Assembly: GCA_964016885.1 (NCBI GenBank)
Contig: OZ024746.1
Coordinates: forward strand, 16,058,001 to 16,122,000
DNA length: 64,000 nucleotides
Reading direction: 5' to 3'
Origin: Eledone cirrhosa
Lineage: Eukaryota
Shown piece by piece: positions 20,576-38,992 of the stretch (the stretch's first letter is position 1; each line of letters opens with the position of its first letter). The translations under genes were made by a program, and so were the position numbers. The notes under the pieces are model-generated. The model did not search any database, had not been told where the DNA came from, and was given only the letters and a program-made list of their open reading frames with translations.

Positions 20576-20720
20576 ACGATATATTAAAAAATGGAAACTA
20601 TATTTATAAAACCATATTTGTTAATATATAGTATTTTTACTCAAATAATTTGTTGAGTGCTTTATATCAGTTATAAAAATATTTGCTTGTTGTATCCCAA
20701 CAATTTAAATAGAACTTCTA
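20576..20720. mobile_element. Collapsed copy of palindromic PLE-like element family P2 (hammerhead deleted)
   Basis: Shares aaatggaaactatatttataaaaccatattt and gttgagtgctttatatcagttataaaa...cccaacaat with 25120-25322 and 38748-38992; flanked by (TA)n/(CA)n. Confidence 0.75.
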
Positions 20721-21195
20721 CACACACACACACACACACACACACACATATATATATATATATATGATACTGCACCGATTGTGTTATTTCTGTTTACCTT
20801 TTACACACACACACGACCGAGGTTACATACACATATATGACATATATATATATACACATATATATATATGACTGAGGTTACTATACACACACACATCATA
20901 AAACACGGGACAAATACGGTTAAGAGAAAACTCGGTAGAGACAAACACATGGACTAAGGCAAGGTGCCAACAATGGCAAGAACCTTGTTGTCAGCGACTT
21001 CCACAAACGTCACAAAAACCACCAACTGACAAAATAGTTCTCCAATAATTCTTGGTAGTTTAGAATGTTATTGTTCGGTTATCGATGCAGTGACCTTCAC
21101 GTTTGCCACAGTATCCAGAACGTGGGAAGGAGCAAAACAGTCACTAATTGATTTTGTTGATATTGTTGTTGTTGCTGTCATCGGTTTATATTAAG

Positions 21196-21425
21196 GGCAG
21201 TGGATTGGCAGTAATCGGTAGTGCATTGGACACCATCCTTTACGATATAGAGTTACGGCCCTTTACATTATGAGTTCAAAACGTGCTGAGGTTAGCTTTG
21301 CTTTTCATCCTTAGAGGGTTGATAAAATAAAACACCAGTAATGCACTGGGCTAGATTTAATTGACTTCTCCTCCCCCATATTGCTGGCCTTGTGCCTACA
21401 TAAGAAACCATTATTATTATTATTA
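21196..21425 (+). mobile_element. tRNA-derived SINE, family B
   Basis: TGGCAGTAATCGGTAG A box, GAGTTCAAA B box, central GCTTTTCATCC..GGGTTGATAAAATAA..ACCAG block, and a GCTGGCCTTGTGCC...(ATT)n tail. Confidence 0.75.
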
Positions 21426-21695
21426 TGCAAGTGTCCAACGTGAATGGTTAAACTATATTAAGTATTTTGTCAGCTTTATTTTCATAGCTCTATAATAAAA
21501 TAAGTACCAGCAATATAATGAGAGAGTGGGGAGGCAATTGTAATTGACTTATTATAACCATATATAGTCAGATAGTAATAATGTGTATTTTCTATTTAAT
21601 TATATCAGTTTGTAGGTAATGTTAAAACATTTAGTAAGATATTCAAGTAACATCATCATCATCACTTTATATCTGTTATACCATACTGGCATCGT

Positions 21696-22566
21696 GTTGA
21701 CCAGGTCTGTTCCACCACCTCACCAACTGTTGACCAGGTCTGTTCCACCACCTCACCACCTGTTGACCAGGTCTGTTCCACCACCTCACCAACTGTTGAC
21801 CAGGTCTGTTCCACCACCTCACCAACTGTTGACCAGGTCTGTTCCACCACACCACACCACCACCTCACCAACTGTTGACCAGGTCTGTTCCACCACACCA
21901 CCACCTCACCACCTGTTGACCAGGTCTGTTCCACCACACCACCATCTCACCAACTGTTGACCAGGTCTGTTCCACCACACCACCACCTCACCAACTGTTG
22001 ACCAGGTCTGTTCCACCACACCACCATCTCACCAACTGTTGACCAGGTCTGTTCCACCACACCACCACCTCACCAACTGTTGACCAGGTCTGTTCCACCA
22101 CACCACCACCTCACCAACTGTTGACCAGGTCTGTTCCACCACACCACCACCTCACCAACTGTTGACCAGGTCTGTTCCACCACACCACCACCTCACCAAC
22201 TGTTGACCAGGTCTGTTCCACCACACCACCACCTCACCAACTGTTGACCAGGTCTGTTCCACCACACCACCATCTCACCAACTGTTGACCAGGTCTGTTC
22301 CACCACACCACCACCTCACCAACTGTTGACCAGGTCTGTTCCACCACACCACCACCTCACCAACTGTTGACCAGGTCTGTTCCACCACACCACCACCTCA
22401 CCAACTGTTGACCAGGTCTGTTCCACCACACCACCATCTCACCAACTGTTGACCAGGTCTGTTCCACCACACCACCACCTCACCAACTGTTGACCAGGTC
22501 TGTTCCACCACACCACCACCTCACCAACTGTTGACCAGGTCTGTTCAACCACACCACCACCTCCCC
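21696..22566. repeat. 33-bp then 41-bp minisatellite (~22 copies)
   Basis: tgttgaccaggtctgttccaccac(accaccac)ctcaccaac; an 8-bp insertion converts the 33-bp unit into the 41-bp unit. Confidence 0.95.
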
Positions 22567-22606
22567 AAGTGTACATTAATTTAACAAACAAATCCGTGAA
22601 GACCAA

Positions 22607-36530: not shown

Positions 36531-38289
36531 ATATAGTTGTTCTACATAAGAAAGGCAAGAATTTGCATAATCTTATTCTCTTATATCTGAATAAGATATA
36601 TTTTTGAAAGACTGACCATTATACTAACACTTTAATTTGGTCAGATGAGGTCGGTCAGGACCCATGGCTATTTTCAAGTAGTTGAAACTGGTAAGAAGAA
36701 AGAAAGAAGTTATCCTCTAACTTCAGCCCTTAATACTTGTAACATAGAGTACTTACTCCACTAAAGGACAAAGCCACAATGTCCAACTGGTGCTGTACAC
36801 TGGATGATATATCAAATCTATCATACACAAAATTGGAATCAGTTGTAAAGTTTGGCATTTGAATGTTTTAAACAAAAGTTTCATCATCATCTTCATTTAA
36901 CGTCCATCTTCCATGCTAGCAAACAATTTCAACTATGGCTCTCTTCTAGAAAATATATTTAGCCAGTGCCCCCCTCCTCAACACACACTCACACATACTG
37001 TCAGGTTAATCAACAATAATACATTAGAAATTAAATTTTCATAACCTTTTAAAATTTTATTTAATCCTTTTGATACCAACCTGTCCTAAATCACTTCTGG
37101 TTCTGTGTTGTGGAGTGAAGAGGTATGGAGTGGTGTGGTGTGGAGTGGTGGAGTGGAGTGTAATGTAGTGTAGTGTGGAGGGGAGTATTGTGGTGTGGAT
37201 TGGAGTGGTGTGACACCTAACAAGCTACTCTCGGGTCTCAAAATAATTGCTCCTCCCCCCCAATCCCCGCGTATTTAATTTTGATAATCTATCTCCAGCA
37301 AAATTTTATTTTAAGTGGTAGCATTCCTATGACAATTAATTTTCATTATACATTAAAAAAACATCATACATGACAAAAAAAAAGCTCATTACAAGAAATC
37401 CCATATGTTATAAAATAAATAGGTTAGGTCGGGGTCTCAATAAGTAAACTAAATTACTAATTCTGGTTTTTAAAAAAAAATTACCGATTACCCCCCCCCC
37501 CCCCCCCCCCTTATTAATTAGGATGGAAGAGTATATACCCGTAACACTCTACATATAATTGTTTCTACTTTTGGCACAAGGCCAGCAAATACCCCAGTGC
37601 ATTACTGGTACTTTATTTTATTGACCCCATAAGGATGAACATGTGATGTGGAGTGGAATTTAGGAGTGAGGGATTGACAGCAGATAAAATATATAACTGA
37701 TACTATATAATATAAATCAGTATAGAGCCCGTTTGAAACTAGTTTTACCTTTACTCAACAGAGTACTCAATAAATGGGGTTGTAGGGTCTGGTTTTATTA
37801 TAAAAAGTCAGGACCCTGACAGCTGAGCTCTTGCTGTTTCAATAGCTAGTTCCAGGCATATTTTAGGTATCAAACTCTACTCTAGTCCTTCTATGTAATC
37901 TGAAGTTAGAGAAGAATTTGATACCTAAAATATATGCTAGCATGTAAGATAGAGGTTAAACGATGATGATGATGATGATGATATATATATCTGAGCCCAC
38001 CTTTGTGGTGGGGCTGATCACTTTGTTAGAACTCAATGTTTCTCAGGAGGATGGCCGACTGAACAGTGTTTTCGAGACTAGAAATAGGTAGTAACTTAAC
38101 TCCTACCATACTAGTCACTACATCGATCTCCACCAATCAATTGATCCTCTGAAACGATCATAAAACAATGAACTCTCTACCTACACCTCACTTCTGTTTT
38201 TATTGTTCAAACACATATATGTGTGTGTGTGTGTGTGTGTGTGTGTGTGTGTGTGTGTGTGTGTGTGTGTATGCATATATATACACACA

Positions 38290-38365
38290 CAGGGTGTCCC
38301 AAAAATGTATGCACATTTCAACATCATTCTAATAAATATGTGTATACATTTTTGAGGACACCCTT
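38290..38365. mobile_element. Tc1/mariner-type mini-MITE (~76 bp)
   Basis: Terminal inverted repeats CAGGGTGTCCCAAAAATGTATGCACAT / ATGTGTATACATTTTTGAGGACACCCT in a TA-rich context. Confidence 0.8.
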
Positions 38366-38379
38366 TATATATATATATA

Positions 38380-38698
38380 ACGAAGGAAATGTGGTAAGGA
38401 ACCAGATGGACTATAACACACCAAAGTACTCAATACTTAGGGTAGTAGAGTAGGTAATAGGAATGAGTAGGACCCCAGAATTAGCTGTCAAAACGGCTTG
38501 AGCTCAGCCGTCGGGGTCCTACTCGTTCCTATATATATATATAATATAGAAATGGCTTCTACAGGACTAGAACTGTTTCATTCGGGAGAAATCAGTTCTA
38601 GTTCTGTAGAAGCCATTTCTCTATTAAATATTTATACTCTGCTTTGTATTGAATACCTTACTTACTGTGGTTACTCTCGATTGAACCAGAGATAAACA
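38380..38698. mobile_element. Two adjacent fold-back PLE-like fragments separated by (TA)n
   Basis: 20-bp arms at 38457-38476/38513-38532 and 28-bp arms at 38548-38575/38593-38620. Both carry a downstream TTGARTAC-like motif as in the hammerhead-bearing elements. Confidence 0.6.
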
Positions 38699-38747
38699 TA
38701 TATATATATATATATATATATATATATATATATATATATATATATAT

Positions 38748-38992
38748 ACGATATTAAACAAATGGAAACTATATTTATAAAACCATATTTATTTCGTTAT
38801 ATATATTTCTGGGATATCATATTAAAAATATGTTATGCCTTCCTCAGACAAAATACAATATGTATTGATTTTATAAATATAGTTTCCATTTGTTTAATAT
38901 CGTAAACCTACTCCAGAAACTGTTGAGTGCTTTTATATCAGTTATAAAATATTTACCCGTTGTAACCCAACAATCTTAAATAAAACTTTTGC
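38748..38992. mobile_element. Fold-back PLE-like element, family P2
   Basis: 35-bp perfect arms at 38748-38782/38869-38903; homologous to 25120-25322 and 20576-20720; flanked by (TA)n. Confidence 0.8.
38790..38855 (-). ncRNA. Type-I hammerhead ribozyme motif (diverged stem II)
   Basis: UAUUUUGU-CUGAGGA-AGGCAUAACAUAUUUUUAAUAUGAUAUCCCA-GAAA-UAUAUA-UA-ACGAAAUA. Stem I is fully paired, with an A-U to G-C compensatory change versus 25165-25225; stem II has an A-A mismatch at its base. Confidence 0.75.

What the first reader, a model, noticed from the sequence alone, without database searches (positions are those of the whole stretch)
20576..38992. Family P2: three states of one hammerhead-bearing fold-back element with covarying stem I
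Seen: 25120-25322 has perfect 95-bp arms, a complete hammerhead on the minus strand, and a plus-strand arm truncated inside the core (starts AUGAG). 38748-38992 has 35-bp arms, a CUGAGGA core and an unrelated stem II sequence that still base-pairs. 20576-20720 has lost its centre. Stem I changes from UAUUUUAU/AUAGAAUA to UAUUUUGU/ACGAAAUA, and the only core change is at the free N7 position. This pattern suggests selection on ribozyme structure rather than chance.
Basis: partly seen in the sequence, partly recalled or inferred. Interest (0 to 1): 0.75.

Follow-up and report, generated by a model that had tools for sequence, protein, structure and literature searches.

The report
Twin-primed Penelope ends with hammerhead
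These three stretches are leftover end-pieces of a Penelope-type jumping gene that carries a predicted self-cutting hammerhead RNA, and their back-to-back layout, with one short and one long end, likely arises when both strands of a cut TA repeat copy the same RNA from two fixed start points.

Summary
The sequence description is right: 95-bp and 35-bp perfect arms, type I hammerheads on the minus strand, fully paired stem I. The reading needs changing. These are not states of one fold-back element. They are separate back-to-back insertions of the 3' end of a Hydra-clade Penelope-like retrotransposon (3.74-kb unit; telomerase-like RT, GIY-YIG endonuclease) from three subfamilies, in TA microsatellites. 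Selection on the ribozyme fold is real but acted in source lineages: N7 takes all four bases while core positions hold in 103-105 of 105 arms. Hammerheads, inverted copies and tails are published PLE features. What the genome adds: 55 of 55 inverted pairs have one short and one long end, 89 nt apart; both arms come from one subfamily; inner ends pile up at an initiator-like TCACT, not at the cleavage site. This points to twin priming on one RNA from two hairpin-marked sites (inferred). The 25120 copy, with two short ends, is a rare exception. The scan reached much the same reading on other DNA of this genome (unchecked notes). Cleavage and expression are untested.

The parts
25120..25322 (.). 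Back-to-back insertion of the PLE 3' end, A-U subfamily; both arms stop at the short (S) end, which is a rare layout; flanked by (TA)n/(CA)n
   Evidence: 96-97% to the element end in L089
25165..25225 (-). Type I hammerhead: stem I 8 bp, core CUGAUGA, stem II with a C.C mismatch, palindromic stem III AUAUAUAU; predicted cleavage between 25173 and 25172
25228..25322 (+). Second arm, 5'-truncated inside the core (starts at A6); joined through a 3-bp CAT/ATG match with a 13-nt loop
   Evidence: the reference upstream sequence carries the CAT (L039)
38748..38860 (-). S-ended arm, G-C subfamily, running through the whole ribozyme
38790..38855 (-). Type I hammerhead, core CUGAGGA, stem I UAUUUUGU/ACGAAAUA; predicted cleavage between 38798 and 38797
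38861..38868 (.). 8-nt filler at the junction of the two arms, with a short fold-back of the arm end
   Evidence: sequence
38869..38992 (+). L-ended arm: 35 nt up to the S site (38903) plus the 89-nt tail to the long (L) end
38910..38931 (+). ACUC..GAGU hairpin motif 6 nt past the S site, first of two such motifs in the element
20581..20622 (-). Very short S-ended arm, third subfamily, stops before the ribozyme
20616..20720 (+). L-ended arm, almost tail only, with the hairpin motif at 20639-20661; overlaps the other arm by a few bases; followed by (AC)n
   Evidence: 93.6% to L091

Best explanation
The three stretches are separate, truncated insertions of the 3' end of a Hydra-clade Penelope-like retrotransposon whose terminal repeat carries a hammerhead motif predicted to cut as a dimer, and each back-to-back insertion likely forms when both nicked strands of a TA repeat prime reverse transcription on the same RNA at two fixed sites 89-94 nt apart. 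Shown: the link to the RT-endonuclease gene, the Hydra motifs, the two fixed ends (S and L), the one-S-one-L rule, the shared subfamily of both arms, the pile-up of inner ends at TCACT, and the structure-preserving changes in the ribozyme. Inferred steps: (1) an internal promoter starts the RNA at the A of TCACT, about 85 nt before the ribozyme core, 190 nt before S and 330 nt before the start codon; (2) the protein, likely as a dimer, binds two ACUC/GCUC..GAGY hairpins lying 6-9 nt past S and L; (3) the GIY-YIG domain nicks both strands of (TA)n and each 3' end is extended, one from S and one from L; (4) when the protein sits on the leader both copies run off the RNA 5' end, giving the common 450-490 bp palindromes, and when it sits on the downstream repeat they run on into the gene; (5) the two cDNA ends are joined by end joining. 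The template was usually not cut by the ribozyme. The 25120 copy (two S ends, perfect arms, short loop) is the exception and may be a cDNA snap-back.
For: Gene link: hammerhead and tail lie 1.0-1.4 kb downstream of the endonuclease end in many of 29 loci found by the protein, and L125-L127 hold repeat-ORF-repeat units of about 3.7 kb whose last 245 nt match the 38748 copy. Protein: RWR, DKT, YRDD, CxCX5C, CxxC-E-N-CxH, as defined for Hydra; EN model matches I-TevI at Z 8.7, rmsd 2.1, 88 aligned; RT model's top hit is TERT. End rule: 55 of 55 inverted pairs among 91 S and 100 L ends on C1 are S+L, against 0.50 expected (P 2.5e-17); genome counts 2405 S and 2553 L; 11 of 11 classifiable pairs in 30 loci of the A-U subfamily; 10 of 17 'unpaired' ends also had an opposite-type partner carrying changes. 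Either arm can be the longer, and L arms can be tail only, which snap-back cannot give. Same source: 0 of 61 insertions had arms of two subfamilies, 0.24 concordance expected at random; 1.2 against 6.2 differences per 118 nt. RNA 5' end: 23 of 170 arms end within 3 nt of the A of TCACT, only 4 in the 10 nt upstream; arms are coupled, 8 mixed pairs against 29.8 expected. Known chemistry: a PLE protein nicks and extends both strands and starts at two internal sites bounding the tail; ribozyme mutants still insert (PMC11167929).
Against: No biochemistry and no RNA data. In vitro, the anole element showed no difference in start site between strands and primed without homology, so the S/L coupling is not shown there. 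Same-subfamily arms could also come from two RNAs of one source, from pools that were uniform at any one time, or from later gene conversion; 25 of the 66 loci were picked by a G-C subfamily pattern. No cap-derived extra G was seen at arms ending at the A, so 'transcription start' rests on the pile-up and the motif alone, and the window for the pile-up test was chosen after seeing the data. The end hairpins fold no better than shuffles (z -0.4 to -1.9). Junction microhomology is weakly supported: 12 of 39 direct joins, mean overlap 2.2 against 0.8 nt; 27 apparent gaps, partly from reference mismatch. Exceptions exist: S/S in L031 and L037; L/L in L125, L048, L254. The 42 nt downstream of the ribozyme are as conserved as the core (2 of 42 variable; part of this is my search anchor). 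None of 10 near-full copies examined had an unbroken ORF.
Confidence: 0.72

Rival explanations
1. Twin priming on two RNA molecules from one source, held together by the palindromic stem III of the hammerhead or by a protein dimer, each copied by one target strand.
For: Most arms overlap, so one RNA would have to be read twice, with strand displacement. Stem III is self-complementary in every subfamily seen (AUAUAUAU, AUAUGUAU; AUGCGCAU in a third family). The active dimer is predicted to lie closer to its best fold than the monomer does (-26.2 vs -30.0 and -20.4 vs -23.8 kcal/mol for two strands; -6.8 vs -11.1 and -3.9 vs -8.9 for one).
Against: Two equal RNAs give no simple reason for the strict one-S-one-L rule, for coupled arm lengths, or for tail-only L arms that stop at the S site (L106, L119, L164). 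No mixed-subfamily pair in 61.
Confidence: 0.14
2. cDNA snap-back: one primed strand folds on itself and is copied back, making the inverted arm.
For: Fits the 25120 copy (identical 95-bp arms, both S, 3-bp match, 13-nt loop) and L037. Several junctions sit in stem II or other hairpins. Would also explain arm identity.
Against: Cannot give an L arm whose tail is absent from a longer S arm (L140, L138, L156), nor a stop exactly at S in 55 of 55 pairs, nor zero-loop joins (L199, L264).
Confidence: 0.06
3. One reading: a non-autonomous fold-back (MITE-like or retrozyme) unit that spreads as a hairpin, with the ribozyme under selection in the copies.
For: Perfect arms; very many short copies (median paired insertion 469 bp); four loci share one match pattern.
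Against: Junctions differ between copies, arms extend without a break into a PLE gene, and there are no head-to-tail monomer arrays. Private changes hit the core about as often as stem I and downstream sites (0.9%, 0.8%, 0.6% per site).
Confidence: 0.03
4. Two independent insertions into the same TA tract, or later inverted duplication, put the arms together.
For: TA tracts do collect several insertions.
Against: Arms are joined with no TA repeat between them, share a subfamily and obey the S+L rule.
Confidence: 0.03

Closest known systems
Hydra clade of C-terminal EN+ Penelope-like elements, including Hydra-1_Obim (Craig et al. 2021, PMC8557442; section 11, passages and supplement rows read)
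   Same: Single ORF with RW[K/R], DKT, CxCX5C linker, CxxC and CxH around E and N, no CCHH; hammerhead near the 3' end; (TA)n targets; partial tandems, an inverted 5'-truncated copy and a tail at one end.
   Different: Unit 3.74 kb (Hydra generally under 3 kb; Hydra-1_Obim 2507 bp, listed without pLTR). Tail 89-94 nt, not 30-40. The hammerhead and the protein stretches shown for Hydra-1_Obim differ by eye, so this is another family (no alignment made). Copy number is high: 48,141 first-look candidates for the EN end, which includes other related families.
PAc, Poseidon PLE of the green anole (Frangieh et al. 2024, PMC11167929; parts 1-2 of 4 read)
   Same: Two internal RT start sites bound the tail; AT-rich targets; both strands cut and extended; the ribozyme is not needed for insertion.
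   Different: PAc starts inside the ORF and showed no strand difference. Here both sites lie before the start codon, each is followed by a matching hairpin motif, and the two ends of one insertion use different sites.
Minimal type I hammerheads of metazoan PLEs (Cervera and de la Pena 2014, PMC4209133; parts 1-2 of 4 read)
   Same: Type I core, long stem II, extra base after A9, short palindromic stem III, dual motifs on opposite strands 100-700 bp apart, many variant families per genome.
   Different: Stem I is longer here (8 bp plus a predicted distal 9-bp extension); stem II has a fixed C.C mismatch; the pair after the extra base is G-C in 61 and A-U in 38 of 105 arms.
LINE-1 twin priming (as described in review PMC10760644, passages read)
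   Same: A second target strand primes on the RNA and the two cDNAs are joined, giving an inverted 5' part.
   Different: Here the second site is fixed, arms usually overlap, and inversion is the common outcome.
Animal non-LTR retrozymes (bioRxiv 10.64898/2026.07.22.740005; part 1 of 5 read)
   Same: Type I hammerhead related to PLE terminal repeats; short non-coding copies.
   Different: No tandem monomer arrays at these loci; the copies are pieces of a coding element.

Membership tests
EN+ Penelope-like element | Single ORF with telomerase-like RT | tested here: met
   YRDD motif; model pLDDT 86, top Foldseek hit TERT 3du5 E 1.8e-9, with other RTs close behind
EN+ Penelope-like element | C-terminal GIY-YIG endonuclease | tested here: met
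   Model pLDDT 92.5; I-TevI Z 8.7, T4 EndoII 7.2, UvrC 6.0; Pfam GIY-YIG in 11 of 63 aligned relatives, not in this protein itself
EN+ Penelope-like element | Pseudo-LTRs from partial tandems, inverted 5'-truncated copy, tail at one end | tested here: met
   L125, L126, L127, L133, L143
EN+ Penelope-like element | Intact, transcribed source copy | tested here: inconclusive
   No unbroken ORF in 10 near-full copies examined; genome not surveyed whole
Hydra clade | RWK motif and DKT in place of DKG | tested here: met
   RWR and DKT in P0002; RWK/RWR across the alignment
Hydra clade | CxCX5C linker; CxxC and CxH around E and N; no CCHH | tested here: met
   CNCRDRSKC; CDLC..E..N..CRH; no CxxC between the two halves of the GIY-YIG motif
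Hydra clade | (TA)n insertion preference and hammerhead present | tested here: met
   the end patterns contained TA repeats, but loci picked by ribozyme or protein also end in them
Hydra clade | Length generally under 3 kb | tested here: not met
   3740-nt unit; a typical, not a diagnostic, trait
Hydra clade | Placement in an RT phylogeny with named Hydra families | not tested
   Reference sequences were seen only as supplement excerpts
Type I minimal hammerhead | CUGANGA/GAAA/UH core with three stems, N7 free | tested here: met
   core positions 103-105 of 105; N7 U39 A34 C22 G10
Type I minimal hammerhead | Covarying stems | tested here: met
   5 pairs with changes on both sides, 96% of cells paired, score 0.247 vs 0.166 +/- 0.015, 0 of 500 shuffles; the count of such pairs alone is not unusual (102 of 500); rows are related
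Type I minimal hammerhead | Self-cleavage, as dimer or with protein | not testable with these tools
   Only folding energies; no pile-up of arm ends at the cleavage site
Non-LTR retrozyme | Tandem non-coding monomers, each with a hammerhead | tested here: not met
   Copies are pieces of a coding element, not monomer arrays
MITE / fold-back DNA element | Fixed internal structure with terminal inverted repeats shared by copies | tested here: not met
   Junction and arm lengths differ between copies; the two termini differ

The most novel reading that the evidence does not exclude
Penelope-type elements insert by obligatory, asymmetric twin priming. A protein dimer grips two matching hairpins in the leader of its own mRNA, starts one DNA copy at each from opposite strands of a cut TA repeat, and both copies run to the RNA's 5' end. 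The palindromic hammerhead between promoter and gene is a dimer switch: uncut, it leaves the RNA as message and template; paired with a second copy, it removes the cap or holds two templates together. This would explain the tail, the inverted repeats and the ribozyme of PLEs in one scheme.
Probability: 0.2. Interest if true: 0.8.

Novelty: new member of a known kind. Interest (0 to 1): 0.5.

Why it matters
How PLEs, the closest relatives of telomerase, make their inverted repeats and one-sided tail is named as an open question in Craig et al. 2021, and the one in vitro study I found maps two start sites but not how the two strands use them. This family leaves thousands of young insertions with a strict rule (one short end, one long end, same source, a shared stop at a likely RNA start), which turns the question into simple experiments with defined RNA signals. 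For annotation, it warns that such palindromes are retrotransposon scars, not MITEs or a new ribozyme replicon. The hammerhead itself is an expected feature.

Tried and rejected
Rfam: no match in the window. Pfam: no family above cut-off for this element's own protein. Solved-structure sequence search gave only weak RT hits, best E 0.0023. Expression: no RNA holder listed; the three runs are contigs of one sample of unrecorded kind, so says nothing on expression, RNA ends or copy number. Cap signature: among 100 listed matches with a non-C base before ACTACC, G was 29, T 44, A 27; 4 of the 5 G cases inspected were templated by the partner arm, so it is not supported. Ribozyme cleavage as the source of 5' ends: 2 of 170 arm ends lie within 3 nt of the site, which is 50-52 nt from S (list; the count printed there used a wrong window), so rejected as the main route. 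Rolling circle on one monomer: in L125 the upstream partial repeat differs from the downstream one by 5 substitutions and 2 gaps in 830 nt while the inverted arm differs by 1 in 1336, which favours a two-repeat source; L126, L127 and L143 are uninformative. Order A-U to G.U to G-C in stem I: G-C arises once (100/99), but the G.U rows sit in an unresolved fork (25 of 38 rows used), so the path is plausible, not shown. Leader fold against shuffles: z -0.6 to -1.0 for three leaders; the script stopped at the fourth. The direct-repeat scan of the window was swamped by microsatellites. A genome-wide count of short two-S palindromes was not obtained.
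Full report
Observation. The three stretches are as described. The 25120 copy has perfect 95-bp arms and a 13-nt loop. The 38748 copy has 35-bp arms and an unpaired 89-nt extension. The 20576 copy holds only the outer pieces. Both complete ribozymes lie on the minus strand and have the type I layout. All three sit in TA/CA microsatellites of a 3.0-Gb genome (G000). The ends are abundant: 2405, 2553 and 2423 exact matches for three end patterns, 0 for the reversed controls.

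What the copies belong to. Related loci turn round at a different point almost every time, so the hairpin is not the unit that spreads. One locus (L047) held the end of a gene between two outward-facing ribozymes. A search with that peptide returned 48,141 first-look candidates, 150 scored; many of the 29 other loci fetched had the 25120-type ribozyme 1.0-1.4 kb downstream. For the 38748 type, L125-L127 hold repeat-ORF-repeat units; the L125 unit is 3740 nt with the start codon at 50, the ribozyme core at 3546, a short end (S) at 3651 and a long end (L) at 3740. The protein has RWR, DKT, YRDD, CxCX5C and CxxC-E-N-CxH, the Hydra-clade signature in Craig et al. 2021 (section 11 read whole). Predicted folds match TERT and other RTs and the GIY-YIG domain of I-TevI (Z 8.7, rmsd 2.1, 88 aligned). 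Craig's supplement lists one octopus Hydra family, Hydra-1_Obim (2507 bp, no pLTR); its ribozyme and protein excerpts differ by eye from this family. The window copies fall in three subfamilies: A-U stem I (25120), G-C stem I (38748) and a third matching L091 (20576). None of 10 near-full copies examined had an unbroken ORF.

The ribozyme. In 105 arms from loci chosen by their ends or by protein, with anchors outside the core (the 5' strand of stem I was partly constrained), each core position is kept in 103-105, while N7 is U39, A34, C22, G10. Stem I keeps pairing through A-U, G.U and G-C at one position and wobble swaps at two others. Stem II covaries at four pairs. On 15 representative rows, 96% of cells pair and the covariation score exceeds all 500 shuffles, but the rows are related and the number of covarying pairs alone is not unusual (102 of 500). 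Between lineages, 0 of 12 core columns vary against 51 of 81 upstream, but only 2 of 42 downstream columns vary, part of which was my anchor (168 arms). Stem III is a palindrome throughout, and the active fold is predicted to cost less in a dimer than in a monomer. This is the class described by Cervera and de la Pena 2014 (parts 1-2 of 4 read), which cut poorly in vitro and only as multimers.

The insertion rule. From the listed S and L ends on the first 153.7 Mb of C1 (91 of the 100 listed S ends, all 100 L ends), 55 inverted pairs were found and all 55 were one S plus one L; independent choice predicts 50%. Of 17 ends without an exact partner that I fetched, 10 had an opposite-type partner with changes, 1 was L/L with a divergent tail, 5 were one-armed and 1 was a fragment. 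In the A-U subfamily, 11 of 11 pairs classifiable in 30 loci were S+L, and the first 100 S ends gave at most one S/S pair. The window's 25120 copy is one of only two S/S cases found even when it was the query. Either arm may be the longer and the L arm may be tail only, which excludes snap-back as the general route. In 61 of 66 loci where both arms span the ribozyme, none had arms of two subfamilies; 54 labels were identical and 7 differed by a private change. Uniform RNA pools or gene conversion could contribute.

Where arms stop inside. Of 170 arms mapped from 102 loci, 23 end within 3 nt of the A of a conserved TCACT, 4 in the 10 nt upstream and 21 in the next 10 nt downstream; two end within 3 nt of the cleavage site. 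Upstream of TCACT the subfamilies diverge. Arms of one insertion tend both to pass this point (22 of 61) or both to stop at or short of it; mixed pairs are 8 against 29.8 expected. The simplest reading is an RNA 5' end. A start site inside the pLTR is reported for Penelope and Chlamys-3 (passage); calling TCACT initiator-like is from recall. An extra cap-derived G was looked for and not supported.

End signals. Earlier scan notes pointed to two hairpins. I checked: ACUC-N8-16-GAGU follows S in 176 arms, mostly after 6-7 nt, and GCUC..GAGC follows L after 8-9 nt in all 8 repeat-ORF junctions that the pattern returned, in both main subfamilies. Pairing probabilities in the leader are 0.3-0.9 for the first and 0.6-1.0 for the second, but neither folds better than shuffles. 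Their role is inferred.

Mechanism. Most likely the RNA starts at TCACT, the protein binds the two hairpins, both strands of a nicked (TA)n are extended, one from S and one from L, and the cDNAs are joined. On the leader this yields the common short palindromes (median 469 bp between end patterns); on the downstream repeat it yields long copies. Frangieh et al. 2024 (parts 1-2 of 4 read) showed both-strand cutting and extension, two start sites bounding the tail, a predicted dimer and no need for ribozyme cleavage, but no strand difference in start site. Twin priming is a proposed LINE-1 model (review passage). The main rival is two RNAs from one source.

Novelty. The element is a new family of a named clade, and its ribozyme, inverted copy, tail and TA preference are in print. 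I found no paper stating the one-S-one-L rule, the twin hairpins or the shared stop. Searches: Penelope + twin priming + inverted (2 listed, neither on this by title or abstract start); six mechanism terms since 2022 (2); promoter terms (1); octopus + Penelope + hammerhead (4). The library lacks most subscription papers, including older PLE reviews that I did not see, and supplements other than Craig's were not read. A 2026 Octopus vulgaris repeat annotation lists Penelope-like families but has no mention of Hydra or hammerheads in its main text (passages). Other papers seen: bioRxiv 10.64898/2026.07.22.740005 (part 1 of 5) and PMC6962438 (passages). Unchecked scan notes on other DNA of this genome reach the same Hydra, twin-arm, hairpin and capped-start readings; they are not independent evidence. 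My S/L, same-source and TCACT counts were made before I read them; the hairpin lead came from them.

Verdict. Observation confirmed, interpretation partly supported. New member of a known kind. Interest 0.5: the ribozyme is expected, but the insertion rule makes an open question about PLE transposition directly testable.

Noticed in passing
window 29031-29445: A third hammerhead family (CUGAUGA...GAAA UGCGCA UA; stem III palindrome AUGCGCAU) in the same back-to-back layout; one arm carries a tail with the same ACUC..GAGUGCU motif. It also appears in several other loci.
   Followed up: partly
L125:2765-2815; L085 and L087 repeat-ORF junctions: The RNA just past the long end reads AUAUAU (G-C subfamily) or UAUA (A-U subfamily), which could pair with a nicked TA target; past the short end the match is 1-4 nt or absent.
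   Followed up: partly
stem II, fourth position, all subfamilies: A C.C mismatch is kept in 96 of 105 arms while neighbouring pairs covary; it may be a tertiary or protein contact.
   Followed up: no
leader of L126, L127, L085: UUAUAAAAC upstream of the ribozyme is predicted to pair with GUUUUAUAA downstream (P 0.85-1.0), extending stem I; the active proximal register is predicted at only 3-8% in the G-C subfamily monomer.
   Followed up: partly
L243, L254: Insertions whose long-end tail looks like another subfamily's tail; possible mixed-template events or nested insertions.
   Followed up: no
G000 C809:10008, C22:28948021, C13:14854430, C2:93170402: Four loci with the same match pattern to the 38748 copy, perhaps one insertion carried by a larger duplicated repeat.
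   Followed up: no
window 42705-44426 (+): 574-codon open frame with C2H2 zinc fingers (Pfam PF00096, E 2.5e-7), likely a host gene exon.
   Followed up: no
window 13056-14969 (-) and 32083-33183 (+): Long open frames made of short repeats; minisatellite or repetitive coding sequence, not resolved.
   Followed up: no
protein P0007: A relative at 42% identity is annotated in Argonauta hians, in line with an octopod-type host; the host group is my inference.
   Followed up: no
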